A stretch of 64,000 bases of DNA from a virus (IMGVR_UViG_3300038499_000012:1-64000); one strand, 5' to 3'. Shown: positions 4,885 to 41,095, numbered from the stretch's first letter. Numbers and translations are program-made. Notes: generated from the sequence alone by a model not told the origin.

Positions 4885-4922
4885 GGCCCCTATATCCACA
4901 TACCACATAAAAGGAGTCTTGG

Positions 4923-6812: not shown

Positions 6813-6816
6813 TCGT

Positions 6817-6833: not shown

Positions 6834-6836
6834 GAC

Positions 6837-13618: not shown

Positions 13619-14025
13619 AGGTATATAACAGACCTCCGGTGTCGTATCAAAGGGCCCTTCAGTGTATCTTACCAGAAATTGATATGGTGTGTAAAAGTAT
13701 GTTGCTGCCTAATCCTCAAATAAAAGCCGTTAGAGACTTTAGATCCTTAGGAGGATATGAACCTGACTCCTACCTAACGCACCCTTTAATTGTAATCAAT
13801 TTGGATCGATTACCCTTCTCACTACTCAAGAAAGGAGTGGACCTTAAAAGAATATTGAGTATGATTGTCTTGCACGAACTAGGACATGCATACCTAGATA
13901 GCCAAGGGGTTCCTTTGCCTCATGACGAAAAGAACATATACCATTTTTGGATAAAGTATTCCGAGACTAACTCAGTAGACCTTACGGTCTTGAAAGCAAA
14001 CATAATTGTTAAACTGTCGTCATAA
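13615..14025 (+). CDS. putative zinc metallopeptidase (HExxH)
   Basis: VLHELGHAYLD motif (ImmA/IrrE- or SprT-like). Confidence 0.3.
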   Translation: MKVYNRPPVSYQRALQCILPEIDMVCKSMLLPNPQIKAVRDFRSLGGYEPDSYLTHPLIVINLDRLPFSLLKKGVDLKRILSMIVLHELGHAYLDSQGVPLPHDEKNIYHFWIKYSETNSVDLTVLKANIIVKLSS

Positions 14026-14039
14026 GAGGTCAAACAGAT

Positions 14040-14312
14040 ATGTGGCCAGACTGCAAACATTGCAATTCCCCTGCCCGTAACAACCCTAAGACATGCCGTG
14101 CCAAAGGCAAAAAATTGGGCACCATGAAGGATTCCACAGGCAAGATCCCTGAGGTGAGTTCCCATATGGAGGCTCTGCAGCTCATCAAACAGGTCAGCGA
14201 GGACAAAAGAAGTCACTTCATGCTAGAAGATCTGTGTGACTGGCTGGAGCTCAAGATAAAAATAATGGGCACTCTTGCCGGCAGGGGTCTTAAATTGAGG
14301 AAGATATGTTAG
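14040..14312 (+). CDS. hypothetical protein
   Basis: ORF. Confidence 0.25.
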   Translation: MWPDCKHCNSPARNNPKTCRAKGKKLGTMKDSTGKIPEVSSHMEALQLIKQVSEDKRSHFMLEDLCDWLELKIKIMGTLAGRGLKLRKIC

Positions 14313-14345
14313 GGGTAGGATAGTCTGGCATACAAATTTCGAATT

Positions 14346-14404
14346 TCCCCCGTATAATAAAAGTGAATGCAGATCTTGACACGAATCCTTTTTAGTGGTA
14401 TATT
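14346..14404 (+). promoter_or_regulatory. tandem promoters upstream of the cas operon
   Basis: A cccccGTATAATAA motif at ~14346-14360. A sigma70-like TTGACA-N17-TATATT at ~14376-14404. Both lie ~70-130 nt upstream of the first cas gene. Confidence 0.35.
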
Positions 14405-14476
14405 AATCTCTGCCAGGCTATATTCGAGGGTAAAATAGACTTAAGGACGCCATATCAGGTAACCCAAGGAGAAGAT

Positions 14477-16342
14477 ATGATACAAAACGAAATCGACTTC
14501 TGCAGAAAAATTGTTGACCTTGCTGATGCAATCAAATTCCATACCTATTCCGTTCCTGCCGTGACCAAATCCAAACTGAATCCCAAGGGTAAAAAGGCAA
14601 AGCAGAAGGTTTTTCCGGCCTACCGTGCAATTCTCCAACCTGATGGACTTACCTTGTTGCCCCAGCAATATCGTAACGAGAACGTCTTAGAACATGCCTA
14701 CGCCCTTCAATACCGAAACTGTCCAGCCGATACCTCAGAATCCCGAGCAATCTACGGCTCAGATATCCGATTGGAAGTTCGAAAGAAGAAAGAGATCTGG
14801 GTCCGAAATCTTGAAACTCCGCTACTCAATAGCATAGTCTCTTCAGAACTCAGGACCATCAAAAATGCCCTAGCTCTGAGTTCTAAACGGATCCTGGAAT
14901 TCTACCAAAAACGAATGGATGAGTTCACCAATAGGGACCAGAACGGCAACACCCTAGACGATAACGAAGACATCGTATGCGGAATCTTCCTACACATAGA
15001 CTGTTCAATCCTTGGTTACGAACATTGGTACGAGATCCCCGGTGTACTTTCCGCTTCAGATACAGCCGAAATCATGAGGATCACCAACGAAGTTGGTGAA
15101 AAGAAGAAAGAGGCCGCATTTTTGGCCGTACCTGGGGAAGAATGCTATTCACTAGTCAAAAGTCTTCTCAATACGGTTGCATCCGGGGATGAGTCCTCAG
15201 ACAACCAGTTTCAGGATTTTGATTTGGCCGCACGACACAAATCATTCTCGTTAACGTCAGACGATAGACGAATCGTCGCTTTCTATTGGTCAAAAACGAT
15301 GAACATGCTCCGTGTTTCTATTCCCAAGACAAAAGGAGAATATTTCTTCAGAGTTGTGCCGTGCGGTGATTTCAGTCCTATGAATGCCCAAATGTTTATT
15401 GATAACCAAAAAGCATTCAGGGGCAAGTTTGATACCCAAGAGAAAGCCGAAAGTGGGGTATCAGAAGAGGACGATAATATCGAAATTATGCCTGACGAGC
15501 CTATTGATGGGTACGATAAAAAGATCTACAACATGGCCCAACAGGCCCCCTCGGGAATCACCTCGTTCGATATAACCCTTATGCACCGGGAATCCCATGG
15601 ACAGACAAATGTCTCAGAACTATCCAGACTCTACAGAAGTTCGTTCTGCCGGCAACTCAAACGTATCGAGGCGGTCTCGGAAGAAGTCACAAAAAAATAC
15701 AAGTGCACTTGGGAACCCCAGATATGGTCCGCACTGAATACCATCTACTCTCGGTGTGAAAAACGATATCTCAATATCATCGGGCAGATTTTTATGAAGT
15801 TATGGTCCGGAAGCTACAGAGGAATAGCTTCCCTTAAAGAACTTTTTATTGACGGAATACAATACAACATTCGCAATTCGGAAGGGCCTGGTGAATACGC
15901 CCTTCGTGTGGCGTACTTATTCTTGAAAAAACTCAACACAACGGAGGAGCAGATGGATGAAAAATCTTACCGTCTAGGAGAACTCTGTGCCGAGTTCTGC
16001 TGGCCCTTGATCTATCAGATCGGAAGTTTTGATAAGCAGTATTCAGGGTACATCACAAGGAAAGTCAAAAGTGTTGATGAGGTCACTGAGTTCATTGTTT
16101 TCTCCGAGGGAAAACTGATCCTGCATGCAGGTGAAATGATGTATGCCACTGGAAAAGGAGGTCAATTTCCTATCGGAGTAGTTCCAGATACAAGCTACTA
16201 CGCACTGGAAGCTCGAAAGCTCATCAAGGAAGGAATCGAAAAGTTTGATGCGCTTTCCTTTGCCGACGGATACTACTTCATGCGTGGTAACAAATTGTAC
16301 ACTTCCAAAAAAGGAGGCCAGAGTGAAGAATCAAGAGGTTAA
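14477..16342 (+). CDS. putative Cas8-like large subunit (divergent; possibly encodes Cas11 from an internal start)
   Basis: First gene of the cas operon, 621 aa, immediately upstream of cas7 with overlap. I see no recognisable motif; the assignment is positional only. Confidence 0.35.
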   Translation: MIQNEIDFCRKIVDLADAIKFHTYSVPAVTKSKLNPKGKKAKQKVFPAYRAILQPDGLTLLPQQYRNENVLEHAYALQYRNCPADTSESRAIYGSDIRLEVRKKKEIWVRNLETPLLNSIVSSELRTIKNALALSSKRILEFYQKRMDEFTNRDQNGNTLDDNEDIVCGIFLHIDCSILGYEHWYEIPGVLSASDTAEIMRITNEVGEKKKEAAFLAVPGEECYSLVKSLLNTVASGDESSDNQFQDFDLAARHKSFSLTSDDRRIVAFYWSKTMNMLRVSIPKTKGEYFFRVVPCGDFSPMNAQMFIDNQKAFRGKFDTQEKAESGVSEEDDNIEIMPDEPIDGYDKKIYNMAQQAPSGITSFDITLMHRESHGQTNVSELSRLYRSSFCRQLKRIEAVSEEVTKKYKCTWEPQIWSALNTIYSRCEKRYLNIIGQIFMKLWSGSYRGIASLKELFIDGIQYNIRNSEGPGEYALRVAYLFLKKLNTTEEQMDEKSYRLGELCAEFCWPLIYQIGSFDKQYSGYITRKVKSVDEVTEFIVFSEGKLILHAGEMMYATGKGGQFPIGVVPDTSYYALEARKLIKEGIEKFDALSFADGYYFMRGNKLYTSKKGGQSEESRG

Positions 16343-17309
16343 GCAGGTCGAGGTCGAGACCAATGGCGTTAAGAGGGCGGATCTTCTGATTCTGTGGACC
16401 AGCAGAAATTGCATCGTGAACGGTGATCCCTGGACAGGAGAGCAGCGCTATGATGAAGCCACAGGCAGACCTCTGTGCTCTGATGTCAGGCTTAAGGCCT
16501 TCGCCAGATGGTATGCAGACCACATACACCTTTTCGAACCCGGCCATCCTGCTCTGGATGTGTTTTTCAAGGATTTCACGCAGAGTGATATAGCTCTAGC
16601 CAGGGCCGAGAAAGAAGGGGCATCAGGAGCTTCCGTTCGGGTGCGTATGCTCAAGGCCAAGTACAAACCGGAAGAGGACTTGAAGACTCTGGTTCTCAAG
16701 TGCCTCGATTCTCGTGGTTTCGGAAACGTCGTCACGGAGAAGAAGACTCCGGTGCATCTCACAGGCCCGATCCAGTTCGAGCAGCTCAATCCGACTCTGC
16801 ATCAAGTGAAGCTGATGGAAAACCAGAATACCTGTCATCTTCCATCAGATATCAAGAACAATGCAGGAGCAATAGCCACCAGCAGCCTGGTTCCCTTCAG
16901 CATCAACCAAGTGGTCGGCGGGGTCTATTCAATCCTCGCTCTCGAAACCGGCCTGACGGAAGATGATGTCATCCTCATTCTTCGGTGCCTGTGGCGGGGA
17001 ATAAACTGTTACAAGAGCCGGAGCAAGATGGGGCAGAATTCAAGACTGATCTTGAAGATCAACTATCAAGATCTGGCAACAGCAACCGCCGATCTGAATA
17101 CCTTGGTCACACTCAAGAATTCAGAAGACAAAGGCCTTCGCAGAATAGACCAAGCCGTATGGGATTTTTCGAGGCTGGACAATCTCATGAAGGACCCCAA
17201 TGTCGTAACGGTTGAGTATCGTGCGGATTCCTTCATGAAGCCGGTACTCCTGGGTGCCATCTCGAAAGATACGGTTTCTAAAATGGTCGAGTTGCAAGGT
17301 CTCTGGTAA
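16323..17309 (+). CDS. cas7: Cas7 (Cascade backbone subunit; DevR/Csd2/Csh2-like N-terminal motif)
   Basis: GTG start 5 nt after aaggagg; track start 16245 is probably too far upstream. N-terminal NGDPwtgeqRyDeaTGrplcSDVrLKafaRwY resembles the NGDPDxxNxPRiDpeTGxGLVTDVCLKRKIRNY motif of I-B/I-C Cas7 and is also similar to CasC. Confidence 0.55.
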   Translation: MKNQEVKQVEVETNGVKRADLLILWTSRNCIVNGDPWTGEQRYDEATGRPLCSDVRLKAFARWYADHIHLFEPGHPALDVFFKDFTQSDIALARAEKEGASGASVRVRMLKAKYKPEEDLKTLVLKCLDSRGFGNVVTEKKTPVHLTGPIQFEQLNPTLHQVKLMENQNTCHLPSDIKNNAGAIATSSLVPFSINQVVGGVYSILALETGLTEDDVILILRCLWRGINCYKSRSKMGQNSRLILKINYQDLATATADLNTLVTLKNSEDKGLRRIDQAVWDFSRLDNLMKDPNVVTVEYRADSFMKPVLLGAISKDTVSKMVELQGLW

Positions 17310-17638
17310 GAAAAGAGAAGGTAAAGACCTTACACGGAAAAACGTGTAGGGTCTTACCAACTCATAGGAGTACTCGGTCAATTACCACCAGCACAAGGCT
17401 GGAGGCTTGTCCTTCCAAATTTCGTCCAGAGAACGATGACTCTAATGAGTCATAACGGAGGACTATAAGCCAATTGACTGTGGCTCATTATCATACAGCA
17501 TGCTGTATGATAATCACTTGTACTCAGAACTCTGTGAGTACTCGCTACAGTTCCTAAGATACATTATGGAAGAGAGCACGAGTCATTACTCGCTTCCTCC
17601 GCCACCACAAGGGTAGCGGTTTCCGCTCGTGAGGTTTT
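17310..17638 (+). other. structured non-coding spacer inside the cas operon (hairpins and a perfect 28-bp palindrome)
   Basis: No ORF. Imperfect ~16-bp hairpin with 6-nt loop (ggtaaagaccttacacg/cgtgtagggtcttacc) at ~17320-17358. atgactcTAATgagtcat at ~17436-17453. Perfect 28-bp palindrome attatcatacagca|tgctgtatgataat at ~17487-17514. gtactcagAACTctgtgagtac at ~17520-17541. Stem ggaag...cgagtCATTactcg...cttcc at ~17568-17610. Confidence 0.5.
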
Positions 17639-18385
17639 ATGAAAGCCGTAACCATACGAATTTCTGGTAGCCGGGCGCATTTCAAGCGGCCAAATACCAA
17701 CAACAATCCATGTACTTATGCCGTTATTCACAAACCAGCGCTTTTTGGAATCATGGGCGCTGTCTGTGGAATTCAGAGGGCAGAAATGGCATCCCTCTAT
17801 CCTAAGCTGTGCAGTGAAAATAAATCTGACGGCATAAAGATGGCCCTTCGAGTTCTAAATCCTATTTCAAAAGAGGCACATGGATTCACAAAACGAAATG
17901 TCACTCCAGTTCCTGAGCGCCAAGGGGATTTGAAGGGCTTTAAGAACAATTCCCGTGGCAGAAGGTTCTGTGAAGTCCTTCGAGATCCTTCTTATGAGGT
18001 CACACTGGGATCTCAGAATCCTCAATTCGTTGAGATATTATCGACCTTCAAAAATCAGATACTAGCCAATAGGTCGATTTATCCACACTACCTCGGCAGT
18101 ATTAACTGCATGTGTCAGCTGGCCTTCATATCGGACTCAGAAGTATCGGAAGAAAAAAACGGTGAGTTCTCTACCCGACACATTGTTACGAAAACAGGCC
18201 ATGAAATTTCTGACACAGGAGATATGGATATTCTGTGTGAGAATATCCCGATCGCAGAAGATGCCAATAGGAGATACACAGCCACTGCCGATGTCTATTG
18301 TTTCTGGGAAGGCCTACTGGACGTAAAAGGTTCTTATCAGACCATTTCCAACCAAACCGGAGATGCCACAGCATGTTTCATCTAA
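17639..18385 (+). CDS. cas5: Cas5
   Basis: N-terminal ISGSRAHFKRP...ALFGIMGAVCGIQR resembles E. coli CasD (LAGPMQAWGQP...LLGLLGACLGIQR) and the AhFrxP signature of Cas5 proteins. Confidence 0.6.
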   Translation: MKAVTIRISGSRAHFKRPNTNNNPCTYAVIHKPALFGIMGAVCGIQRAEMASLYPKLCSENKSDGIKMALRVLNPISKEAHGFTKRNVTPVPERQGDLKGFKNNSRGRRFCEVLRDPSYEVTLGSQNPQFVEILSTFKNQILANRSIYPHYLGSINCMCQLAFISDSEVSEEKNGEFSTRHIVTKTGHEISDTGDMDILCENIPIAEDANRRYTATADVYCFWEGLLDVKGSYQTISNQTGDATACFI

Positions 18386-20961
18386 GCTCCTATACGCTCA
18401 ACTGCATCTCGCACCCAGGCAAAAAACTCCTTCGTCATTCACAAGGTACGACGAAGGGACTCCTTGATCTATTGCCCAAAATAGCACGCCACTTAAAAAA
18501 AGTTGCTGCTGTGGTGGGCAATTTTCATGATACAGGAAAATTCCTTAATCGATATTTTCAGGACAAGCTTAGAGGAATCCTTTATAAAGACAAGTACACA
18601 CATCACTCCTACCTATCCATGATGTCCCTTTTGGGTTTTTTGCTTCCCGGTAATCATCAATACCGCTCCTACAGGGATATGGTAATAGCCCTGATATGCA
18701 TCATTAAACACCACGGAGGCATTCCGAATCTGGATAAACTAATCAACGACAAAGAACTAAAACAAATGCGGGATTACATCACAGAAGTCCAGTCAAAAGG
18801 ACTTCTTCCAGATATAACGGAATTCAGGCATCAAATAGGATTCGATGGAGACACGAAGCCTGTGTCAGAAATCAAGGACAGCTTGATACGATGTATTTTT
18901 TCTAGGGCAGATAAAATAAACAGCATTTTTACTCGAATCAGCGAGGAAGATCGATTGGGATTTTGGCTTGATTTGAGAATGGTGTTCTCCTGCTTGGTGG
19001 CTGCGGACAAGCAGGATGCAGGAGATCACAAACTTGATATAAATGACAAATTCCTTCGAAAGAAATTTCATAAAGGTATTAAGGCTTACATTGATAATCT
19101 TTCTAAAGTAGTAGCGAAAACGGAGAACGCTAGGAAACTGAACCTTATCCGAACCGAGATGAGAAAAGTGGCGGTACAGAACCTGATAGAAGTCGTAGCC
19201 GCCAATCCTGATAGGCGTCTATTTCAGCTCACATACCCGACAGGAGCGGGAAAAACGGTCATTCTGTACTGCTGTGGCTCGGTGATTCAACTGAAGAAAG
19301 GTTCCCGAAGAATAATATATTCCGTACCTTTTCTTTCTATAACGGATCAGGTTGCTACCATCATAGAGGAAATCTTCCCAAACGAGGAAGATAACATTCA
19401 GCGCATTGATTCCAAGGCCCAACCGGATGAAGATTTGGACTATGACCTGACATCAAGCGGTGATGATGTATCACCCTTGATGGAGGCGCTAAAAAAGTTC
19501 ATAAAAAACTTCATAAAGTTTACACTTAAAAAAGATATCAGTGACATCTCCGCAAACAAAATTCTTAAACAAGAACTCCAGGAGATTTGCTTCTCTTACC
19601 CATTGATCACAACTACATTCGTGCAGATGTTCCAAACTCTGACTACAGCCTCCAACCGTGGACTGATGAGATACAACGGGCTCTCTGGGTGTATATTTCT
19701 GATAGATGAAATTCAGGCCCTCCCACCGAGGCTCTACAACTTTTTAGTGGCACTTCTGGATGCCTTCTGCCGGCGCTTTGATAGCTATGCAGTTATATCA
19801 TCCGCAACAATGCCTTATTTCGATATACCGACGAAGTCAAAAGAAGGCCAGAAAATGTTTCCTGGCTACATGCCCCCTATCGAAATAGGAGACATCAGCT
19901 ACTTTGATGACCCCATCTTCAATCGGTATGATATCGTCGGTATAAAGACCAAGATGACCGTCGATAGTATTGCAGAGAAAATCCGCAAAGAGGAAAAATC
20001 CACTCTAGTGATATTGAACACGAAGAAGGATGCCAAAAGAGTCTATAAAAGAGTCAAAAAGACCGGAGAGGATGCAATTCTGCTTACAAGTTTGAATTGT
20101 GACCGGCAGGATATTTTAGACCTGTGTCAAAAAAAGTTAGATAACCATGAGCGCTTCTTTCTCATATCTACAAATCTCATAGAAGCTGGTGTGGATATCG
20201 ACTTCTGCACAGTATATCGAGAAATAGCCCCCCTGCCGAATATCATTCAGAGCGCAGGTCGAGGTAATAGAAATGGCAATCTCTACCCAGATAGAGCAAC
20301 CATTTATGTTTTTGATTTGATCGACGACAAGGGACGATCCCGATCAAAGTGTATATACAATGGCGATGTCGATGGACCATCCTTAGAATATGCTAAAAAA
20401 ATATTCCTTCTATCCGACAGGATTGCCACACCTGAATTAGAACTCCTGTCCCTTCAAAAGGCTTTCTTTATGGAACAGGGAGAAAATCTCTATTTTGGAA
20501 CTTGGGATTTCTCGATGCCTATCGAGGATGAGGAAGAAGATGAAGAAGAATACAAAACAAAACCAAAAAGGATGAACTTCGTAGATCTCATCAATGGATT
20601 CCAGTATGGAGACATTGGAAGATTTAGGCTGATTCCTGAATGCCGCTACGGAGCGCAGGTTCAATTCTATGTTCCAGAATCGGACGAGGATAAGAGATTT
20701 GAGAAGTTGGTGGAGTATCAGGCCGCGATTCAACAATCGGAAGAAGAGGACGTCCCTATTAAGACAAGGCTGGCTAATAAAAGGAAACTCCATCTACACC
20801 TTCGGGAAATGATGCCTCGGGTAGTTCAGATGAATCTTGGCGAAAAGGACCCTCCTCTTTCAGAGTTAGCAGAGTATGAAGGTATGGTGAGCCATTTGTA
20901 TAAACTAAAGCTGAAATACTACAGTAAGGAATACGGTATAACCTGGGAGGAACAACAATGA
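18373..20961 (+). CDS. cas3: Cas3 (HD nuclease + SF2 helicase)
   Basis: HD motif (VVGNFHDTGKF). Walker A YPTGAGKT. DExQ box LIDEIQALP. SAT motif SATMP. Helicase C-terminus QSAGRGNR. Start taken as the Met overlapping the cas5 stop. Confidence 0.8.
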   Translation: MFHLSSYTLNCISHPGKKLLRHSQGTTKGLLDLLPKIARHLKKVAAVVGNFHDTGKFLNRYFQDKLRGILYKDKYTHHSYLSMMSLLGFLLPGNHQYRSYRDMVIALICIIKHHGGIPNLDKLINDKELKQMRDYITEVQSKGLLPDITEFRHQIGFDGDTKPVSEIKDSLIRCIFSRADKINSIFTRISEEDRLGFWLDLRMVFSCLVAADKQDAGDHKLDINDKFLRKKFHKGIKAYIDNLSKVVAKTENARKLNLIRTEMRKVAVQNLIEVVAANPDRRLFQLTYPTGAGKTVILYCCGSVIQLKKGSRRIIYSVPFLSITDQVATIIEEIFPNEEDNIQRIDSKAQPDEDLDYDLTSSGDDVSPLMEALKKFIKNFIKFTLKKDISDISANKILKQELQEICFSYPLITTTFVQMFQTLTTASNRGLMRYNGLSGCIFLIDEIQALPPRLYNFLVALLDAFCRRFDSYAVISSATMPYFDIPTKSKEGQKMFPGYMPPIEIGDISYFDDPIFNRYDIVGIKTKMTVDSIAEKIRKEEKSTLVILNTKKDAKRVYKRVKKTGEDAILLTSLNCDRQDILDLCQKKLDNHERFFLISTNLIEAGVDIDFCTVYREIAPLPNIIQSAGRGNRNGNLYPDRATIYVFDLIDDKGRSRSKCIYNGDVDGPSLEYAKKIFLLSDRIATPELELLSLQKAFFMEQGENLYFGTWDFSMPIEDEEEDEEEYKTKPKRMNFVDLINGFQYGDIGRFRLIPECRYGAQVQFYVPESDEDKRFEKLVEYQAAIQQSEEEDVPIKTRLANKRKLHLHLREMMPRVVQMNLGEKDPPLSELAEYEGMVSHLYKLKLKYYSKEYGITWEEQQ

Positions 20962-21482
20962 AAGCATTTATTGTCGAGGGCGTCACATTAGGAGAAGACA
21001 GTTATACCAAGCATCAGCAGATTGCCGACCTGATTGATAGCAAAAATACTCGATTCCATGAAAGAGAAGACGGTTCCATCGTTCTTCTCTCAGAAACAAT
21101 GCCTGAGGGATCCAAATACACGGCCGTTGGAATGTCTTATTCTAAGGGTGAGATTCTTTCTTTCTCTATCAGAGCTTGTGTCTCAAAACGGTCAGGGGAT
21201 AAAGAAATTCCAATAACCAATATGACAGAGATAGTCAATTGGATAACCAGAAAGGCCAGAGAAAATGGTTTTGTTATCAACTTTTTTGACAATATTGAAG
21301 GCCCTTGTGTCAGAGATGTGACCAAGCCTGGATTTGTTTTCAAAATCAGTACCGTAGATTTTGCCGGCAACCTTACAGTCCTTGACAAGGACTTATTCGA
21401 CCGGGCCTTGAGAACCGGCATTGGAAGAAAAAAAGCTTTTGGCTGTGGAGTTCTCTGTGTTACGCGTAGTACAGATGTTTGA
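20958..21482 (+). CDS. cas6e: Cas6e (CasE) crRNA endoribonuclease
   Basis: C-terminal G-rich loop GIGRKKAFGCGVLCV matches E. coli CasE GIGPAKSMGCGLLSL. ~175-200 aa. ATGA overlap with cas3. Confidence 0.65.
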   Translation: MKAFIVEGVTLGEDSYTKHQQIADLIDSKNTRFHEREDGSIVLLSETMPEGSKYTAVGMSYSKGEILSFSIRACVSKRSGDKEIPITNMTEIVNWITRKARENGFVINFFDNIEGPCVRDVTKPGFVFKISTVDFAGNLTVLDKDLFDRALRTGIGRKKAFGCGVLCVTRSTDV

Positions 21483-21638
21483 TTTCCCGCCCACGCGGGA
21501 GTTTAATAATGAGACGCACTACTGTGCAGGAAGATCTTTCCCGCGTGACGCGGGAGTTGAATGTATAGAGTGTCGAGAACAGATGCAGCGTCATGATCTT
21601 TCCCGCATCACGCGGGGGTTGAATTAAGAGATTATTAA
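21483..21638 (+). CRISPR. mini CRISPR array (3 repeat-like units, 2 spacers) between cas6e and cas1
   Basis: Units tttcccgcccacgcgggagtttaat, ctttcccgcgtgacgcgggagttgaat and ctttcccgcatcacgcgggggttgaat, separated by spacers of ~28 and ~35 nt. Confidence 0.6.
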
Positions 21639-22508
21639 ATGATCTACACAGATTTAAGTGGCCGCCTACCTTTTGTCTATGTAGAAATGGGAAAGCTTAG
21701 GGTATCAGGAGCTTCCCTTGTTTTTGTCAGTGAATCCTCTGTGATTGCTATCCCCGTAGGTAGGATAGCTGCCGTATTCCTTGGACCTGGAATTTCTGTT
21801 ACGGACAGGGCTGTTCATTTGGCCGCTACTGCCGGAAGTATGCTTCTATGGGTAGGTGAGGGAATTACCAAGTGCTACGCAGTGTTACCTACACACCATC
21901 AATCCTCAAAGAATCTTTTATCCCAAATTGAGCTCCTCACCAAACATAAGACTAAAATCTTAAAACGATACACACTGCTTAGGTTTGGAAAAAAACTGCT
22001 GGCTTGGGAACGGCTTAATGAAAATAAGATACGAGGGATAGAGGGCAGCTTCATGAGAAAGGTATATGTAGAATGTGCTAAAAAATTCGGTATTCCCTAC
22101 GGAGGTCGATCCAAAGAGGGGTCCTGGGAAAACAATTCGGTCTATAATAAAGCCATCTCTATATGTAATTCTTACTTATACGGCATGGCTACAGCGGTTT
22201 TGATTGCCTTGGGTTACTCCCCAGCTCTTGGAATTCTACATAATGGAGACTCCTTCTCATTGTCCTTTGATATTGCCGACCTTTATAAACACAAGTTTTC
22301 GATACCTTTGGCATTTGAAGCGTCAAAAAAAGTCTTGGGATCGGATAACATCAGAATAGAAAAAGAAATCAGGATCATGGCTTTAGAAAAAATGAAGGGC
22401 ACTAATTTCGTTAAAGCTATGGTAGAAGATATTCAGGAAATATTCGATGACGGTATTCATCACGAAAAGAATATCAACGAGGACGAGGCGACTTCTGTCA
22501 GCTTATAA
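21639..22508 (+). CDS. cas1: Cas1 (type I-E-like integrase)
   Basis: VGRIAAVFLGPGISVTDRAVHLAATAGSMLLWVGEG aligns closely with E. coli YgbT VGSVACIMLEPGTRVSHAAVRLAAQVGTLLVWVGEA. GIEGSFMRKVY and YGMATAVLIALGYSPALGILHNG are also conserved. Confidence 0.85.
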   Translation: MIYTDLSGRLPFVYVEMGKLRVSGASLVFVSESSVIAIPVGRIAAVFLGPGISVTDRAVHLAATAGSMLLWVGEGITKCYAVLPTHHQSSKNLLSQIELLTKHKTKILKRYTLLRFGKKLLAWERLNENKIRGIEGSFMRKVYVECAKKFGIPYGGRSKEGSWENNSVYNKAISICNSYLYGMATAVLIALGYSPALGILHNGDSFSLSFDIADLYKHKFSIPLAFEASKKVLGSDNIRIEKEIRIMALEKMKGTNFVKAMVEDIQEIFDDGIHHEKNINEDEATSVSL

Positions 22509-22734
22509 TGCTGAGGTATCTTTAGGGGTTTACGTAGGATACCACAACGAAGGCGTGTATATGCGTATTCTTAAATGGTTGAGAAAAAATATAAAGGGGA
22601 ATGAAAAAATACTTATATTGCGTCCGGATAAATCCTGGATTGGCTTCTCAGATGAGTATTTTAATTGGGAATCTCAAGCGGTGTACTTAGATGGTGTTAA
22701 GTTATATAAACCTCTTCATTATTCTTCCGAATAA
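22447..22734 (+). CDS. cas2: Cas2 (type I-E-like)
   Basis: MTVFITKRISTRTRRLLSAYNAEVSLGVYVG aligns with E. coli YgbF ...[22 protein letters not shown]. Overlaps the cas1 3' end. Confidence 0.65.
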   Translation: MTVFITKRISTRTRRLLSAYNAEVSLGVYVGYHNEGVYMRILKWLRKNIKGNEKILILRPDKSWIGFSDEYFNWESQAVYLDGVKLYKPLHYSSE

Positions 22735-22797
22735 CCCATGTTTTAGTGCCCGTTCTTTGAAATAACACATTGATGTAAAAGGACATACCCTTTAAGG

Positions 22798-25700
22798 GTC
22801 TTTCCCGCGTCACGCGGGGGTTGAATATTACATTGTCGGGGTATTCGGGGTAGTCGGATGTCTTTCCCGCGTCACGCGGGGGTTGAATGAGTATGCCCCT
22901 TATACCGTAGGAGGAGACCGGTCTTTCCCGCGTCACGCGGGGGTTGAATTGGACTACGTATACGATACCTGTAGGTCTGTCTGGTCTTTCCCGCGTCACG
23001 CGGGGGTTGAATTCCGGTAGATTTGAGATCGTGTATTAGTTGGGGGTCTTTCCCGCGTCACGCGGGGGTTGAATCCCGAGTCCCTGTCTGTCGTAATATT
23101 GTGATCCGTCTTTCCCGCGTCACGCGGGGGTTGAATTATGGGAATAGGTGGGCCATCTATAGTAGTCTGGTCTTTCCCGCGTCACGCGGGGGTTGAATAA
23201 GAACTCTATAGCAGCGTAAGGAACTTTTGTTTTGTCTTTCCCGCGTCACGCGGGGGTTGAATTATCTACCCGACCGGGAATTCTTCCTCGGTCAGGTCTT
23301 TCCCGCGTCACGCGGGGGTTGAATCTTATCAAGTATGTACACAGGGTATGTTGTGGAGTCTTTCCCGCGTCACGCGGGGGTTGAATAATCGTCTGACCGT
23401 GCACGGACGCCCTCGGTTTGGTCTTTCCCGCGTCACGCGGGGGTTGAATGCCTGTGCACGTTATGGATGCAGACTGAGCGGCGTCTTTCCCGCGTCACGC
23501 GGGGGTTGAATATACTCCATGATCGCAGAGTGCATAGCACTGTTGTCTTTCCCGCGTCACGCGGGGGTTGAATCCACTAAATTGATCTATGATCACAGGG
23601 GGAAGTCTTTCCCGCGTCACGCGGGGGTTGAATGCCTGTGCACGTTATGGATGCAGACTGAGCGGCGTCTTTCCCGCGTCACGCGGGGGTTGAATGATGT
23701 GGATTTGAAGAAACTCGATATACCCGATTGTCTTTCCCGCGTCACGCGGGGGTTGAATCATCTTGTCCCCGTTTTTTGTACCGTCATAGTTGTCTTTCCC
23801 GCGTGACGCGGGAGTTGAATCATGGTAACGTCACGTCCAGACCGTGTCGCAGCGTCTTTCCCGCGTGACGCGGGAGTTGAATTCCCCGTGTGGTCAAAGT
23901 GGCTGGTAAAGTTGTCTGTCTTTCCCGCGTGACGCGGGAGTTGAATACAATCAGCTCAGTTCCGAACCGGCAGACGATCGTCTTTCCCGCGTGACGCGGG
24001 AATTGAATTTCCCGAAGTAGTTGGACAGAACTTCGTCCATGGTCTTTCCCGCGTGACGCGGGAGTTGAATATTCCCCCAATCCTCCGTTGTCCAACCCAG
24101 TTTGAGTCTTTCCCGCGTGACGCGGGAGTTGAATCCTACTTCAAACACGGACTTTTCAGCTGGTGGTCTTTCCCGCGTCACGCGGGGGTTGAATATGGAC
24201 GAGGCCTATGTTGATATCTTCAGCAGGTCTTTCCCGCGTGACGCGGGAGTTGAATCATTTCTCCGATACGCCTATGGTCAGATTTATTGTCTTTCCCGCC
24301 TACGCGGGAGTTGAATTGTTTACGATTTAAGAAAAGAGGGCTATTTGGAACATGTCTTTCCCGCCCACGCGGGAGTTGAATACCAAGACACGAATAGAAA
24401 TGGTGTTTCAGTCTTTCCCGCGTGACGCGGGAGTTGAATACTCTCGATTCGTGGTTTTATGCCAGACTATCTGGTCTTTCCCGCGTCACGCGGGGGTTGA
24501 ATCTATTATTCGTTGCTCTCGCAGGAAAGTCTTTCCCGCATCACGCGGGAGTTGAATGTGGTCAAGCGGGTTCTCACCGGATTCTGCGTCGTCTTTCCCG
24601 CCCACGCGGGAGTTGAATCAGCGGAATGCTAACCGGGGCAATATCCATTCCGTCTTTCCCGCGTGACGCGGGAGTTGAATAATCGGCTGTGTAGGAGGGA
24701 GGAGAGTGTGAAGTCTTTCCCGCATCACGCGGGAGTTGAATCCTGTACGATGAGTTCTTCTCCAAGGCGAAGTCTTTCCCGCGTCACGCGGGAGTTGAAT
24801 CTCATCAACAGCGTCAACACGTACCATCAACAGCGTCAACACGTACCGTGGAACGTCTTTCCCGCCCACGCGGGAGTTGAATTGGGGGTATCTATCAACG
24901 GGTCCCCCGTTTTGTTGTCTTTCCCACGTGACGCGGGAGTTGAATTATCATCTGCTTGTATGCCTCAAGGCAGACCTGGTCTTTCCCGCGTAGGCGGGAG
25001 TTGAATAATCCACTACGCAGACGAGATCATTAGTGATAGTGTCTTTCCCGCCTACGCGGGAGTTGAATACCGCCATCATCCGACGCCCGAACCTAGTGGT
25101 GTCTTTCCCGCGTGACGCGGGAGTTGAATTAAACACGGATCTTCGGCGACGACATTACCCAGTCTTTCCCGCACCACGCGGGAGTTGAATATTTCGAACC
25201 TACCTAGGGATAGTAATGAGGTGGTCTTTCCCGCCAACGCGGGAGTTGAATTCTCGAGGCGCTCTTGAAGGTTGTCAACCCGCAGTCTTTCCCGCATCAC
25301 GCGGGAGTTGAATAGGCATCCGAATAACGAAACCAGAAACGTTCTGTCTTTCCCGCCTACGCGGGAGTTGAATTAACCGATTGACTTGTCAAGTGCTAGT
25401 AGTGATGTCTTTCCCGCCTACGCGGGAGTTGAATTACACTCCATATGATCCGGAACCAATCCAGAAGAGTCTTTCCCGCCTACGCGGGAGTTGAATCATA
25501 TCTCCATAAACATTCGTCAAGAAGTTTGGTGGTCTTTCCCGCACTACGCGGGAGTTGAATCATCATGTCGTTCTCGCCAAGGAATGAACGGAATCTTTCC
25601 CGCACCACGCGGGAGTTGAATTGTAGGCCGTCCTACGCGGTTTGGTGGGCACTGCGTCTTTCCCGCCCACGCGGGAGTTGAATAGGCATCCGAATAACGA

Positions 25701-26369
25701 AACCAGAAACGTTCTGTCTTTCCCGCGTCACGCGGGAGTTGAATACAATGTCATCTCAGGGTGGTGTACTGGCGAATCTGTCTTTCCCGCGTGACGCGGG
25801 AGTTGAATCCTTCTGGACATACATGCAGAGACCCAACAAAGGGGTCTTTCCCGCGTGACGCGGGAGTTGAATCCCGTACCCTCGTTCCACGCTATTGACA
25901 CGCCGGTCTTTCCCGCGTGACGCGGGAGTTGAATTTCCTCGGTCGGGAACGTCGTTTCCAGGTCGTCAAGGTCTTTCCCGCCTACGCGGGAGTTGAATAC
26001 GACTATGGGAAGCAAATCAAGGATGTCGTAATCTTTCCCGCATCACGCGGGAGTTGAATGTGGTAGGACCCTGTATCTCAGGCTGTATCTTAGGCCGAGA
26101 AGTCTTTCCCGCCCACGCGGGAGTTGAATCACCGGCGTACAGATGGGTGCTGCCATGCAGCAGTCTTTCCCGCGTAGGCGGGAGTTAAATTATTCGTTTG
26201 TGGACCATGCCTTGACCTAGTCTTTCCCGCGTCACGCGGGAGTTGAATAGCTGCCGCTTCTTTTGCAGCTCTCACCGTCGGTCTTTCCCGCCCACGCGGG
26301 AGTTGAATCACACCCTGCTGGAAGAACGTATGGTCCGTCACTGTCTTTCCCGCGTAGGCGGGAGTTGAA
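22798..26369 (+). CRISPR. CRISPR array, 58 repeats (28-29 nt) and 57 spacers (mostly 32-33 nt); leader on the cas2 side
   Basis: Consensus GTCTTTCCCGCGTCACGCGGGGGTTGAAT with hairpin cccgcg/cgcggg followed by an 8-nt handle (I-E style). Repeats 1-16 are identical; repeats 17-58 carry ...GCGGGAGTTGAAT with many loop variants (TGAC, CTAC, CCAC, ATCAC, ACCAC, CAAC, GTAGG). Degenerate repeat remnants extend to ~26500. Confidence 0.95.
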
Positions 26370-26563
26370 TAGTTGAATAGTTGAATCTAAGAGTAATGGA
26401 AGAATTATTTTGTAGTTACTTTTCCCATCTACATAGAATGGGAGTTAAATAGGCTATATTCGAGGGATCAAATTTCCCGCGTAAGCGGGAGCATTTTATT
26501 ATGTTTTTTGGATACGGGTGTATAATAAGAACGGGTATAAGGAGTATTTCCCGCGTCAAACGG

Positions 26564-26929
26564 ATGTATCATGAAAGCATACACCATCACACACAATCCC
26601 CGAACGACCCTGATAAAGGGGGCAGTATGGACGATAGTAGCTCTGGGACTACTATTCATACTCTCAGTAGTCCTGATCATCCTATCCGTGTCTTGTACCA
26701 CACAGACCAGACACTACTCTTGGAAGTCGAAATGTGTACGACCGGTGCCAACATACACCGGGTCAATCAAATCCGAGCCGTCTACTATAACCTCATAGAC
26801 CTCATCAACCGGTCCCAGCCCAATGAGAAAACCACCCTTATGGAAGGATACCTTCATCATGTTGAACAACTGTTTCAATCGTTTGTGGCCACGGGCATCA
26901 TCAAGCGACTCCCCCATATTGACCTCTGA
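26564..26929 (+). CDS. hypothetical protein
   Basis: Internal Met of track ORF 26501, downstream of a GTATAATAA motif at ~26515-26529 and aaggagt; the alternative-frame 75-aa membrane ORF 26571..26798 is also possible. Confidence 0.2.
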   Translation: MYHESIHHHTQSPNDPDKGGSMDDSSSGTTIHTLSSPDHPIRVLYHTDQTLLLEVEMCTTGANIHRVNQIRAVYYNLIDLINRSQPNEKTTLMEGYLHHVEQLFQSFVATGIIKRLPHIDL

Positions 26930-27464
26930 TGCCACAACCATTATCAGCCCTACCTACACAGCCATCTCCACGGTTACAGTAGGCCTGGACTACCAACTGT
27001 CCCCAAACTTCACCTTCGGAATGCTCACCAAAACCGAACATAGGGAATTCCTCGAGCTCAACCGAAAAGAAGGGGCCCAAAAACTCACAAACCTCGCCAG
27101 ACTGTGTAACGAGATTCTGGAACCCGTCAGAACCTTCATGGGCTCAGCACTCATTACCTCCGCATTCCGCTGCCCAGCCCTCAATACGGACATCGGAGGG
27201 GCCAAGAACTCTCAACACGTTCAGGCCGAGGCCGCGGACATGGAATTCACCGGAGCTACGGAAGGGGCCCCTCTGAGAGAGGCATTCAACAAAATAGCGT
27301 TCACATCAACCATTCAATACTCGCAGATCATACTCGAATTCGGGCAATGGATCCATCTTGGCCTTATAAATGAAATCCTGTACCCGGGAAGGAAATTGCA
27401 GAAGCTCATAGCTTCAACCGTGAATGGAAAAACTGTGTACACTGCAGTGACAAAATCCATCTAA
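26823..27464 (+). CDS. peptidase M15-family (VanY/L-Ala-D-Glu peptidase-like) cell-wall hydrolase, candidate endolysin
   Basis: LSPNFTFGML... and ITSAFRCPALNTDIGGAKNSQHVQAEAADM match the Peptidase_M15 signature (ITSGYRxxxxNxxxGGxxxSxHxxGxAxD). True start probably downstream of the track start. Confidence 0.5.
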   Translation: MRKPPLWKDTFIMLNNCFNRLWPRASSSDSPILTSDATTIISPTYTAISTVTVGLDYQLSPNFTFGMLTKTEHREFLELNRKEGAQKLTNLARLCNEILEPVRTFMGSALITSAFRCPALNTDIGGAKNSQHVQAEAADMEFTGATEGAPLREAFNKIAFTSTIQYSQIILEFGQWIHLGLINEILYPGRKLQKLIASTVNGKTVYTAVTKSI

Positions 27465-41080: not shown

Positions 41081-41095
41081 TGCGAATGTTCCTGA

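What the first reader, a model, noticed from the sequence alone, without database searches (positions are those of the whole stretch)
14346..26500. Phage-borne hybrid type I CRISPR-Cas: I-B/I-C-like effector order with I-E-like adaptation and processing module, no separate cas11 or cas4
The full locus reads cas8-like, cas7, cas5, cas3, cas6e, mini-array, cas1, cas2, then a 58-repeat array. Cas1, Cas2, Cas6e and the repeat (29 nt, cccgcg/cgcggg hairpin plus 8-nt GGTTGAAT handle, 32-33-nt spacers) look type I-E. The order cas8-cas7-cas5-cas3 is the I-B arrangement, and the Cas7 N-terminus carries the NGDP...TG..L.SDV.LK...R.Y motif of DevR/Csd2/Csh2 Cas7. There is no stand-alone cas11, no cas4, and cas3 sits between cas5 and cas6e. 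I do not recognise this gene order as a described subtype. The locus lies inside what looks like a phage genome (tail fibres, HNH, MTases), so it may be used against competing mobile elements or host defence islands.
Basis: partly seen in the sequence, partly recalled or inferred. Interest (0 to 1): 0.85.

Follow-up and report, generated by a model that had tools for sequence, protein, structure and literature searches.

The report
Phage-borne I-B/I-E hybrid CRISPR-Cas
A bacteriophage genome carries an intact adaptive CRISPR-Cas system that joins type I-B interference proteins to type I-E RNA-processing and spacer-acquisition proteins through a chimeric repeat. It belongs to a rare, metagenome-only lineage that I did not find described, and it seems to repress its own promoter with a degenerate guide RNA.

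Summary
Window 14376-26499 holds one + strand unit in this order:
- promoter
- cas8b, with a conserved internal cas11 start
- cas7b, cas5b, cas3, cas6e
- a three-repeat mini-array
- cas1e, cas2e
- a 58-repeat array
- a degenerate crRNA-like unit

HMMs split the proteins cleanly. Cas8, Cas7, Cas5 and Cas3 score best as I-B. Cas6, Cas1 and Cas2 score as I-E.

The same gene order recurs in every relative with enough contig. These span at least five deeply diverged lineages (Cas8 25-29% identical). All are metagenomic and their flanks look like phage.

An exhaustive search of 1.84 billion protein representatives found only about 17 full-length Cas8 clusters of this clade. The next-closest Cas8 hit whose context I could read sits in a canonical I-B locus with cas4.

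The repeat itself is chimeric. It has an I-E-like hairpin that covaries between lineages, followed by an invariant TTGAAT handle like the I-B ATTGAAAT.

The missing cas11 and cas4 are expected, not odd. Cas11 is internally translated in I-B, and I-E adaptation needs no Cas4.

A CreR-like pseudo-spacer matches 16/16 nt just downstream of the cas8 promoter. A 262-nt structured insertion sits between the ancestral ribosome-binding site and the start codon of cas5.

No spacer target was found. Novelty: new variant of a known kind.

The parts
14376..14404 (+). Promoter of the cas operon: TTGACA, 17-nt spacer, TATATT, with TG before the -10 hexamer
   Evidence: This is the best sigma-70 match in 14000-27000, at 11 of 12 positions. 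It is 100% conserved in the close relative L032.
14412..14430 (+). Predicted target of the CreR-like RNA: GCC flank (14412-14414) plus AGGCTATATTCGAGGG (14415-14430). It lies 7-26 nt after the -10 hexamer.
   Evidence: The 16-mer occurs only here and at 26451, with 0 expected in shuffles. It is conserved in L032.
14477..16342 (+). cas8 (large subunit, 621 aa), Cas8b/Cas8c superfamily
   Evidence: PADLOC Cas8b1 scores 3.5e-20. Pfam, NCBIfam and PDB sequence searches gave no hit. The AF2 model has pLDDT 80 and its best folds are I-C Cas8c, 8dfs_I and 8g9t_K. The clade has about 17 clusters.
15953..16342 (+). Predicted internally translated cas11 (129 aa), in frame within cas8
   Evidence: An invariant Met column is preceded by GGAGG 6 nt upstream. 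An equivalent ATG with a Shine-Dalgarno motif is present in 8 of 8 cas8 genes compared, one of them shifted by two codons. The C-terminal part of the model is mainly helical with one short beta-hairpin. The mechanism is known for I-B, I-C and I-D (10.1101/2020.04.18.045682).
16323..17309 (+). cas7 (328 aa), Csh2/DevR type
   Evidence: Cas7b 8e-32 and PF05107 2.9e-27. The closest solved chain is 7xz3, a Csh2-family protein. The GTG start has AGGAGG upstream.
17324..17355 (+). 13-bp hairpin just after the cas7 stop codon
   Evidence: Inverted repeat I2. It is conserved in L032 and kept through compensatory changes in L033.
17377..17638 (+). 262-nt highly structured insertion between the ancestral cas5 Shine-Dalgarno motif and the cas5 ATG. 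It is not ancestral to the system.
   Evidence: It is absent from L032 and L033 (69-77 nt gaps) and from all distant relatives. The fold z-score is -8.65. There is no match in Rfam, GenBank phages or viral contigs.
17639..18385 (+). cas5 (248 aa), I-B type
   Evidence: Cas5b 5e-26 and TIGR02592 4e-21. Cas5c models match only the N-terminal 40 residues.
18373..20961 (+). cas3 (862 aa), fused HD nuclease and SF2 helicase
   Evidence: Cas3b 1.4e-107 with full-length coverage; TIGR01596 HD and TIGR01587 core also hit. The motifs FHD, PTGAGKT, DEIQ and QSAGRGNR are visible in the translation.
20958..21482 (+). cas6e (174 aa), repeat-hairpin endoribonuclease
   Evidence: TIGR01907 scores 54.1 bits, above its 45.2 cut-off, and PF08798 scores 4e-18. 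The closest solved protein is T. thermophilus Cse3. The catalytic His and the G-rich loop align with Tth and E. coli CasE.
21480..21624 (+). Intra-operon mini-array: degenerate repeat (21480-21507), 26-nt pseudo-spacer, repeat (21534-21562), 33-nt spacer, repeat (21596-21624)
   Evidence: It is absent from L001, L006, L012 and L014, where cas1 follows cas6e directly or overlaps it.
21639..22508 (+). cas1 (289 aa), I-E type integrase
   Evidence: TIGR03638 scores 225.6 bits, above its 215.6 cut-off. E. coli Cas1 scores 1e-40. The motifs RGIEGS, LHNG and DIAD align with the E. coli motifs RGIEGS, VHTG and DIAD. The residue numbers E141, H208 and D221 come from my own knowledge.
22447..22734 (+). 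cas2 (95 aa), I-E type
   Evidence: PF09707 scores 32.7 bits, above its 24.7 cut-off, and Cas2e scores 2e-7.
22735..22797 (+). Leader (63 nt) between cas2 and the first repeat
   Evidence: The first 17 repeats next to it are identical and the distal ones are degenerate.
22798..26370 (+). Main CRISPR array: 58 repeats of 28-29 nt and 57 spacers
   Evidence: The hairpin covaries across lineages and the TTGAAT 3' end is invariant.
26418..26499 (+). CreR-like degenerate mini-CRISPR: pseudo-repeat 1 (to 26450, handle AGTTAAAT), pseudo-spacer 26451-26471, pseudo-repeat 2 (26472-26499). Pseudo-repeat 2 is a hairpin followed by a T-run and doubles as a terminator.
   Evidence: Sequence. Both hairpins fold. 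Terminator-like site at 26474-26491. The pseudo-spacer matches 16 of 16 nt (18 of 21) to 14415-14430.

Best explanation
This is an intact type I CRISPR-Cas system carried by a phage. It descends from type I-B, and its Cas6b and Cas4-Cas1b-Cas2 block has been replaced by a type I-E block (Cas6e, Cas1e, Cas2e).

**Likely mechanism** (inferred from family knowledge unless marked as shown):
1. A sigma-70-type promoter at 14376-14404 drives one + strand transcript through all cas genes and the array. The promoter match is shown.
2. Cas6e cuts each repeat at the 3' base of its hairpin. This gives crRNAs with an 8-nt 5' handle (G/A)GTTGAAT, a spacer of about 33 nt and a 3' hairpin.
3. Cas5b caps the I-B-like handle, about six Cas7b subunits cover the spacer, and Cas8b plus internally translated Cas11b complete a Cascade complex.
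4. After PAM-dependent R-loop formation, the HD-helicase Cas3 degrades the target DNA.
5. Cas1e-Cas2e insert new spacers of about 33 bp at the cas2-proximal leader without Cas4.

The chimeric repeat is what lets the two modules work together. It combines an I-E-type hairpin for Cas6e and Cas1e-Cas2e with an I-B-type handle for Cas5b.

A degenerate crRNA-like unit after the array probably guides Cascade to the first transcribed bases of the cas operon. There it would repress the operon without cleavage, as CreR does.

The phage most likely uses the system against competing mobile elements or host loci. The targets are unknown.
For: **Module identities.**

**One operon.**
- Genes overlap or abut: cas8/cas7 by 20 nt, cas5/cas3 by 13 nt, cas3/cas6e by 4 nt.
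- There is a single repeat family.
- Composition is uniform.

**Functional integrity.**
- All ORFs are intact.
- Aligned motifs matching the known Cas1 catalytic residues (residue numbering from my own knowledge), the Cas6e catalytic His and G-loop, and the Cas3 HD and helicase motifs are present.
- The 17 leader-proximal repeats are identical and the distal ones degenerate.

**Conserved architecture.** The order cas8-7-5-3-6e-1e-2e-array recurs in L001, L006, L012/L013 and L014. The partial contigs L011 and L015 are consistent with it. This holds despite only 25-29% Cas8, 34-39% Cas7 and 25-31% Cas6e identity.

**Outgroups.** Canonical I-B loci carry cas4-cas1-cas2, and L008 also carries a Cas6 of the I-A/I-B type (L008 and L035).

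**Chimeric repeat.**
- The hairpin is 98.3% paired across four lineages, and 3 of 6 pairs show compensatory changes. Slid controls give 33-57%.
- TTGAAT is invariant. The canonical I-B locus L008 ends its repeat in ATTGAAAT.

**Internal cas11.**

**CreR-like unit.**, read against the CreR definition in 10.1101/2023.03.10.532045.

**Phage context.**. Relatives' flanks also look like phage.
Against: - There are no expression, processing, interference or adaptation data.
- No protospacer was found for any of the 58 spacers or for the 26-nt mini-array pseudo-spacer, so PAM and targets are unknown.
- The effector proteins score below NCBIfam's curated I-B cut-offs. The nearest solved Cas8 fold is I-C, not the one solved I-B Cas8b.
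- A 262-nt insertion separates the ancestral Shine-Dalgarno motif from the cas5 start codon. It could reduce expression of everything downstream.
- One relative, L014, has a degenerate Cas1 and no cas2, so adaptation is not maintained everywhere.
- The CreR-like unit could be checked in only one other complete array end, L013. No obvious counterpart was seen there.
- The window contains no capsid or terminase gene, so a prophage or phage-plasmid is not excluded.
Confidence: 0.78

Rival explanations
1. The locus is a chance juxtaposition, or an assembly chimera, of two unrelated systems: an adaptation-less I-B effector cassette next to an I-E remnant. It would not be one co-adapted system.
For: HMMs assign the two halves to different subtypes. 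Module shuffling and in-situ exchange are common in CRISPR-Cas evolution (PMC12669027).
Against: The same junction is present in at least five deeply diverged lineages. In the window, cas3 overlaps cas6e by 4 nt. The same contig was recovered in independent ENA and Logan assemblies, and the protein search also reports a JGI source. There is only one repeat family. It combines an I-E-type hairpin with an I-B-type handle. No I-E effector gene (cas8e, cse2, cas7e, cas5e) is present.
Confidence: 0.02
2. The system is decaying or has been repurposed. It would no longer interfere or adapt, and would serve mainly as a regulatory or guide-only device, or as a relic.
For: A 262-nt insertion lies between the Shine-Dalgarno motif and the ATG of cas5. 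Distal repeats are degenerate, and some spacers are odd: 26, 42 and 54 nt, the last with an internal duplication. No spacer has a match anywhere that was searched. The relative L014 has lost cas2 and the Cas1 catalytic residues. Regulatory crRNA-like units are present.
Against: All seven cas ORFs are full length with catalytic motifs. The insertion supplies its own GAGG 4 nt upstream of the ATG. The 17 identical leader-proximal repeats carry unique spacers, which argues for recent acquisition. Cas3 keeps its HD and helicase motifs.
Confidence: 0.12
3. The locus belongs to a bacterial chromosome or integrated prophage and defends the host. It would not be a weapon of a free, virulent phage.
For: No capsid, portal or terminase gene lies in the window. 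A tRNA-Pro sits at 63395-63476. I-B arrays in prophages are known from the literature (one search list, e.g. the C. difficile paper PMC4556805).
Against: Both flanks over 64 kb are phage-like: rIIA and rIIB, tail fibres, HNH endonucleases, methyltransferases and many small unknown ORFs. No housekeeping gene was seen. Relatives sit in similar contexts. No Cas8 relative and no array of this repeat type exists in 185,579 species-representative genomes.
Confidence: 0.1
4. It is better filed as a type I-C derivative than as a I-B derivative.
For: The best structural matches of the Cas8 model are I-C Cas8c chains, with probability 1.0 and TM 0.41-0.50. The solved I-B Cas8b, 8ip0_J, is only a weak hit. 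Cas7c and Cas3c models also score well.
Against: The gene order is that of I-B, not cas3-cas5-cas8c-cas7. A dedicated Cas6 is present. Cas5 matches Cas5b over its full length but Cas5c only over 40 residues. The only Cas8 HMM hit is Cas8b1. The closest Cas8 relatives outside the clade sit in canonical I-B loci.
Confidence: 0.08

Closest known systems
Type I-B CRISPR-Cas (Cas8b1/Csh lineage; e.g. Haloferax, Clostridium, Thermotoga systems)
   Same: The effector gene order is cas8b-cas7-cas5-cas3. Cas7 is of Csh2 type and Cas5 of Cas5b type. Cas3 is a fused HD-helicase. Cas11 is encoded inside cas8 through an internal start. The crRNA has an 8-nt 5' handle ending in TTGAA(T/A).
   Different: There is no Cas6b, no Cas4, and no Cas1b or Cas2 of the PF09827 type. 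The repeat is 28-29 nt with a stable GC-rich hairpin placed directly before the handle. Spacers are about 33 nt. Cas8 forms a separate clade: E<=1e-50 within the clade, against about 1e-20 and C-terminal-only matches to other Cas8b.
Type I-E CRISPR-Cas (E. coli / T. thermophilus Cascade)
   Same: Cas6e keeps the catalytic His and the G-loop. Cas1e scores above the curated I-E cut-off. Cas2e is of the CT1978 type. There is no Cas4. The repeat is 28-29 nt with a hairpin of 5-6 bp, and spacers are 32-33 nt. The L012 repeat GTTTTCCCCGCACTTGCGGGG resembles the E. coli GAGTTCCCCGCGCCAGCGGGG; the E. coli sequence is from my own knowledge.
   Different: There is no Cas8e (Cse1), Cse2, Cas7e or Cas5e. 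The handle is (G/A)GTTGAAT instead of ATAAACCG. cas3 lies inside the operon, between cas5 and cas6e.
CreR / CreA crRNA-like regulators (Liu et al., bioRxiv 10.1101/2023.03.10.532045; CreTA of Haloarcula I-B)
   Same: It is a degenerate repeat, pseudo-spacer, degenerate repeat unit. The pseudo-spacer's PAM-proximal 16 nt match a site that abuts the promoter of the effector cas operon. The complementarity is partial, as expected for binding without cleavage.
   Different: It sits at the far end of a 58-repeat array, 12 kb from its target, in a phage-borne system. The pseudo-spacer is only 21 nt. No toxin partner is evident. Neither the PAM nor repression has been verified.
Phage-encoded CRISPR-Cas systems (Vibrio phage ICP1 type I-F; systems in huge phages)
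   Same: It is a complete effector, adaptation module and array carried in a phage genome.
   Different: The subtype composition differs: a I-B effector with I-E processing and adaptation. The targets are unknown. The contig is at least 120 kb, so it has not been shown to be a 'huge' phage.

Membership tests
Type I-B CRISPR-Cas | Signature large subunit of the Cas8b family | tested here: met
   The PADLOC Cas8b1 profile scores 3.5e-20 over residues 225-551. Outgroup relatives lie in canonical I-B loci. Caveats: there is no NCBIfam or Pfam hit, and the nearest solved fold is Cas8c.
Type I-B CRISPR-Cas | Effector operon cas8b-cas7(Csh2)-cas5b-cas3 with Cas11 made by internal translation | tested here: met
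   Scores fall below the curated NCBIfam cut-offs: 108.9 against 171.55 for Csh2, and 75.8 against 97 for Cas5h. The internal ATG with a Shine-Dalgarno motif is conserved in 8 of 8 genes. Translation itself cannot be tested here.
Type I-B CRISPR-Cas | Cas6b-type processing nuclease and a Cas4-Cas1b-Cas2 adaptation module | tested here: not met
   Cas6 is Cas6e (TIGR01907, above its cut-off). Cas1 is Cas1e (225.6 bits, against 41.7 for Cas1b). Cas2 is of the CT1978 type. No Cas4 ORF is present.
Type I-E CRISPR-Cas | Signature Cas8e (Cse1) plus Cse2, Cas7e and Cas5e effector proteins | tested here: not met
   No protein of the locus matched a I-E effector profile at E<=0.01 in PADLOC, NCBIfam or Pfam.
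Type I-E CRISPR-Cas | Cas6e, Cas1e and Cas2e; a 28-29-nt hairpin repeat; no Cas4 | tested here: met
   The repeat hairpin is supported by covariation. The handle sequence differs from that of I-E.
Type I-C CRISPR-Cas | No Cas6, Cas5c acting as the processing nuclease, and the order cas3-cas5-cas8c-cas7 | tested here: not met
   Cas6e is present. Cas5c profiles match only residues 5-42. The gene order differs. Only the Cas8 fold resembles Cas8c.
CreR/CreA crRNA-like regulators | A degenerate mini-CRISPR (pseudo-repeat, pseudo-spacer, pseudo-repeat) associated with the cas locus | tested here: met
   In 26418-26499 both pseudo-repeats keep TTTCCC...GGGAG hairpins and fold as predicted.
CreR/CreA crRNA-like regulators | Partial, PAM-proximal complementarity of the pseudo-spacer to a site in or next to the cas promoter | tested here: met
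   Pseudo-spacer positions 1-16 are identical to 14415-14430, which starts 10 nt after the -10 hexamer. Positions 17-19 mismatch. Shuffles expect 0 matches.
CreR/CreA crRNA-like regulators | The target is flanked by a functional PAM, and Cascade-dependent repression occurs | not testable with these tools
   The flank is CTGCC, but the system's PAM is unknown because no protospacer was found. Repression needs a reporter assay.
Phage-encoded CRISPR-Cas | The locus is embedded in a bona fide phage genome | tested here: inconclusive
   Tail fibres, rIIA and rIIB, HNH endonucleases, methyltransferases and a DNA polymerase exonuclease-like gene (phrog_192, "DNA polymerase exonuclease subunit") flank it on both sides. 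There is no capsid or terminase gene in the window, and the genome is not closed.

The most novel reading that the evidence does not exclude
This clade would be an undescribed, phage-restricted type I variant. By current rules it would be a new I-B variant. In it, a I-B Cascade has stably adopted Cas6e as its processing and 3'-hairpin subunit and Cas1e-Cas2e as its integrase. A co-evolved chimeric repeat makes this possible. In the window phage the system is also self-regulated by a CreR-like guide. That would make it a natural demonstration that Cas6, the repeat and the adaptation module can be transplanted as one unit between type I subtypes.
Probability: 0.55. Interest if true: 0.65.

Novelty: new variant of a known kind. 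Interest (0 to 1): 0.6.

Why it matters
Classification of CRISPR-Cas treats effector, processing and adaptation modules as semi-independent. Well-documented natural cases where Cas6 and Cas1-Cas2 of one type I subtype serve the Cascade of another, over long evolutionary time, are few.

Here the exchange is ancient and conserved. It is also written into the repeat: the hairpin follows the I-E partners and the handle follows the I-B partners. That directly shows which RNA elements each protein module reads.

This gives a natural template for engineering mix-and-match type I systems. It also offers a compact adaptation module that needs no Cas4 for I-B/I-C-type editors.

The lineage seems confined to phages. 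It adds a complete, apparently adapting type I system to the short list of phage-borne CRISPR-Cas weapons. The CreR-like unit suggests that even phage-borne systems monitor their own Cascade level, possibly as a sensor of anti-CRISPRs from rival elements.

Tried and rejected
**Searches for relatives**
- GenBank phages, DNA similarity over the cas region: no match.
- IMG/VR with Cas7 and with a Cas8 alignment: nothing.
- 185,579 species genomes with a Cas8 alignment: nothing.
- A 16-sequence Cas8 alignment was too diverse to make search patterns.
- JGI metagenome scan: it returned only contigs already known.
- A profile search of the 5.8-billion-protein index with three Cas8 sequences added nothing. 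The exhaustive HMMER search was what revealed the clade.

**Searches for arrays of this repeat type**
- Species genomes: 16 single hits, at roughly the chance level I estimated (about 13).
- IMG/VR: 0 hits.

**Spacer targets**
- Window self-matches are at chance level.
- GenBank phages: none. PLSDB plasmids: none.
- Two spacers scanned exactly in IMG/VR: none.
- Cross-targeting among all fetched loci, including spacers of L006, L013 and L014: none.

**RNA and the insertion**
- Rfam found no family for the repeats or for the cas7-cas5 insertion.
- The insertion has no match in GenBank phages or IMG/VR.

**Ideas rejected**
- Related spacers that target variants of one site: rejected. Only two exact duplicate pairs exceed the shuffle null.
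- A stand-alone cas11 in the cas7-cas5 gap: rejected. The gap is non-coding, and most of it is a lineage-specific insertion.

**Other**
- A CreR counterpart was looked for in L006 and L013. None was evident.
- Four literature searches found no description of a I-B effector paired with Cas6e, Cas1e and Cas2e. The supplement of the 2025 classification has none either. The library is not exhaustive.

Full report

Yes. ORF listing and translation show seven + strand genes between 14477 and 22734. The repeat GTCTTTCCCGCGTCACGCGGGGGTTGAAT occurs 42 times at up to 3 mismatches, with none expected by chance. Allowing 28-nt variants with a shorter loop, the main array has 58 repeats (22798-26370) and 57 spacers. 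The spacer mode is 33 nt.

The first 17 repeats next to cas2 are identical and the distal ones vary. This places the leader in the 63 nt between cas2 and the array.

A degenerate copy overlaps the cas6e stop codon (21480-21507) and precedes a 26-nt pseudo-spacer.

**2. What are the proteins?**

PADLOC, Pfam and NCBIfam agree on a clean split.

| Protein | Best assignment | Score |
|---|---|---|
| Cas8 | Cas8b1 | 3.5e-20 |
| Cas7 | Cas7b/Csh2 | 8e-32 |
| Cas5 | Cas5b | 5e-26 |
| Cas3 | Cas3b, full-length HD + helicase | 1.4e-107 |
| Cas6 | Cas6e, TIGR01907 | 54.1 bits (cut-off 45.2) |
| Cas1 | Cas1e, TIGR03638 | 225.6 bits (cut-off 215.6) |
| Cas2 | I-E CT1978 type, PF09707 | 32.7 bits (cut-off 24.7) |

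- The I-B effector proteins are divergent and fall below NCBIfam's curated I-B cut-offs.
- No I-E effector profile matched any protein.
- Against solved structures, Cas1 is closest to E. coli Cas1 (1e-40). Cas6 is closest to T. thermophilus Cse3. Cas7 is closest to a Csh2-family protein and then to I-C Cas7.
- Cas1 motifs that align with the E. coli catalytic motifs, the Cas6e catalytic His and G-loop, and the Cas3 HD and helicase motifs are present.
- An AlphaFold model of Cas8 (pLDDT 80, pTM 0.78) matches Cas8c of I-C Cascades best. It matches the single solved I-B Cas8b only weakly. The large subunit therefore belongs to the Cas8b/Cas8c superfamily.

**3. The missing cas11 and cas4**

An alignment of Cas8 from the window, six clade relatives and a canonical I-B locus shows one invariant Met column. 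It lies 117-131 residues from the C-terminus. In the DNA, every gene has an in-frame ATG there preceded by a Shine-Dalgarno-like motif. In the window this is GGAGG, 6 nt upstream of the ATG at 15953.

This is the internal Cas11 start described for I-B, I-C and I-D (10.1101/2020.04.18.045682; PMC11899642). The lack of a separate cas11 is therefore ordinary for this effector type. The lack of cas4 is ordinary for a I-E adaptation module.

**4. Is the hybrid a one-off?**

No. Looking up contigs that encode relatives gave the same order, cas8-cas7-cas5-cas3-cas6e-cas1e-cas2e-array, wherever the contig was long enough:

- L001/L002
- L005-L007
- L012/L013
- L014
- the partial contigs L011 and L015, which are consistent with it

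These lineages are deeply diverged from the window.

| Protein | Identity to the window |
|---|---|
| Cas8 | 25-29% |
| Cas7 | 34-39% |
| Cas5 | 33-38% |
| Cas3 | 36-42% |
| Cas6e | 25-31% |
| Cas1 | 48-51% (26% in L014) |

An exhaustive HMMER search of 1.84 billion representatives with a Cas8 profile found 139 hits. Only about 17 are full-length with E<=1e-50. After a gap, the remaining hits match only the C-terminal half. Every clade member looked up is metagenomic and unnamed.

The outgroup hit whose context could be read (L035), and the Cas7 relative L008, sit in canonical I-B loci with cas4-cas1-cas2; L008 also has a Cas6 of the I-A/I-B type.

No relative was found in IMG/VR or in 185,579 species-representative genomes. 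No array of this repeat type exists there either.

The flanks of relatives are dense in small unknown ORFs and in HNH, PcfJ and Band_7 genes. They look like phage.

**5. The repeat is itself chimeric**

| Locus | Repeat |
|---|---|
| Window | GTCTTTCCCGCGTCACGCGGGGGTTGAAT |
| L012/L013 | GTTTTCCCCGCACTTGCGGGGATTGAAT |
| L006 | GTTATCCTCACGCCGGTGAGAATTGAAT |
| L014 | GTTTTCCTCACACTAGTGAGGGTTGAAT |

The stem changes through compensatory substitutions. It is 98.3% paired, and 3 of 6 pairs show changes on both sides. Slid controls give 33-57%. The 3' TTGAAT is invariant.

The canonical I-B locus L008 has a different, 30-nt repeat that ends in ATTGAAAT. The E. coli I-E handle is ATAAACCG; that sequence is from my own knowledge.

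The inference is that the hairpin co-evolves with Cas6e (and Cas1e-Cas2e) and the handle is held constant for Cas5b and Cas7b.

**6.

The best sigma-70 match in the region is TTGACA-17-TATATT at 14376-14404. After the last repeat comes a degenerate unit:

- pseudo-repeat 1, ending in the handle AGTTAAAT (to 26450)
- a 21-nt pseudo-spacer, AGGCTATATTCGAGGGATCAA (26451-26471)
- pseudo-repeat 2 (26472-26499), whose hairpin is followed by a T-run and reads as a terminator

The first 16 nt of the pseudo-spacer are identical to 14415-14430, which starts 10 nt downstream of the -10 hexamer. Positions 17-19 mismatch. The 16-mer occurs nowhere else in the window, and shuffles expect 0. The promoter and the target are 100% conserved in the close relative L032.

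This matches the definition of CreR/CreA regulators: a degenerate mini-CRISPR whose pseudo-spacer partly matches the cas promoter (10.1101/2023.03.10.532045). The PAM and the repression itself are untested. No counterpart was evident in L013.

**7. An insertion in front of cas5**

The 330-nt cas7-cas5 gap folds far better than shuffles (z = -8.65). Close relatives L032 and L033 (Cas7 90% and 88% identical) have gaps of only 69-77 nt.

Alignment shows that the window carries a 262-nt insertion (17377-17638). It sits exactly between the ancestral Shine-Dalgarno motif (AGGAGTACTCG) and the cas5 ATG. There is no target-site duplication. Rfam, GenBank phages and IMG/VR give no match.

The insertion ends in GAGG, 4 nt before the ATG, so cas5 may still be translated. 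Its nature is unexplained.

**8. Context and targets**

The window encodes the following:

- three collagen-like tail fibres
- rIIA and rIIB
- two DNA methyltransferases
- HNH endonucleases
- a DNA polymerase exonuclease-like gene (phrog_192, "DNA polymerase exonuclease subunit") and a UvrD-like helicase
- one tRNA-Pro

Composition is uniform. The phage is distant from all GenBank phages.

None of the 58 spacers, nor the 26-nt mini-array pseudo-spacer, has a match in the places searched. These were the window, GenBank phages, PLSDB plasmids, the fetched relatives and, for two spacers, IMG/VR. The biological targets and the PAM are therefore unknown.

**9. Comparison with known systems, and novelty**

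By the current classification principle, the signature effector defines the subtype. Adaptation and effector modules are known to shuffle (PMC12669027). On that basis this is a I-B-derived system.

It fails the I-B features concerning Cas6b and Cas4-Cas1b-Cas2. It fails all I-E effector features. I found no description of this combination in the papers searched.

What stands out is the combination of conserved architecture, a separate Cas8 clade, a chimeric repeat and apparent restriction to phages. I rate it a new variant of a known kind.

It is interesting to specialists for three reasons. It shows module transplantation with repeat co-evolution. It is a complete adaptive system borne by a phage. 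And it seems to regulate itself. It is not categorically new.

Noticed in passing
window 26418-26499 and 14412-14430: A degenerate repeat, 21-nt pseudo-spacer, degenerate repeat unit lies after the array. Its first 16 nt equal the sequence just downstream of the cas8 promoter, flanked by CTGCC. It looks like a CreR/CreA-type autoregulator. Pseudo-repeat 2 doubles as a terminator.
   Followed up: yes
window 17377-17638: A 262-nt insertion rich in hairpins (fold z = -8.65, including a perfect 28-nt palindrome at 17487-17514) lies exactly between the ancestral ribosome-binding site and the ATG of cas5. It is absent from two close and all distant relatives. It has no target-site duplication and no match in Rfam, GenBank phages or IMG/VR. 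Its nature is unknown.
   Followed up: partly
window 21480-21624: The intra-operon mini-array has a third, degenerate repeat that overlaps the cas6e stop codon, plus a 26-nt pseudo-spacer (AATGAGACGCACTACTGTGCAGGAAG). The whole mini-array is absent from L001, L006, L012 and L014. No target was found in the window.
   Followed up: partly
window 27602-27613 (- strand): The first 12 nt of the 33-nt mini-array spacer (GTATAGAGTGTC) match here, inside the 5' part of ORF 27518-27940. I estimate an anchored 12-nt match at about 0.008 per spacer. The flank CTGAC resembles the CTGCC flank of the CreR-like target. This may be self-regulation or chance.
   Followed up: partly
window 24801-24854; 23450/23634; 25314/25684; 26371-26386: Several array irregularities were seen. 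One spacer is 54 nt and contains a 22-nt tandem duplication. There are two exact duplicate spacer pairs. The handle AGTTGAAT is duplicated twice in tandem right after the last repeat.
   Followed up: partly
L014 16817-17729: In this relative the Cas1-like gene is degenerate. It is 242 aa, 26% identical, and the aligned catalytic His and one Asp are replaced. There is no cas2 before the array. Adaptation seems to have been lost in one lineage of the clade.
   Followed up: partly
window 17324-17355: A 13-bp hairpin lies directly after the cas7 stop codon. It is conserved in L032 and maintained by compensatory changes in L033. It may be an mRNA-stabilising or attenuating element that sets the Cas7:Cas5 ratio.
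   Followed up: partly
window 27518-27940: This ORF has a hydrophobic, signal/lipoprotein-like N-terminus (by eye) and 18/36-nt tandem repeats that encode DTL-rich units. It lies just downstream of the CRISPR locus.
   Followed up: no
window 26546-26558: A solitary half-repeat (TTTCCCGCGTCA) lies between a TGTATAAT -10-like box with an AAGGAG ribosome-binding site and the ATG at 26571. It may be another repeat remnant.
   Followed up: no
window 4210-7538 and L014 93-1487: YqiJ_N and Band_7 (SPFH) genes, and a gene with only a faint radical-SAM match, lie upstream of the CRISPR locus. A Band_7 gene lies in the same relative position in L014, which suggests that the carrier phages are related.
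   Followed up: no
window 38690-47933 (- strand): Three large collagen-like tail-fibre genes carry long 18/54/90-nt tandem repeats that encode G-x-x units.
   Followed up: no
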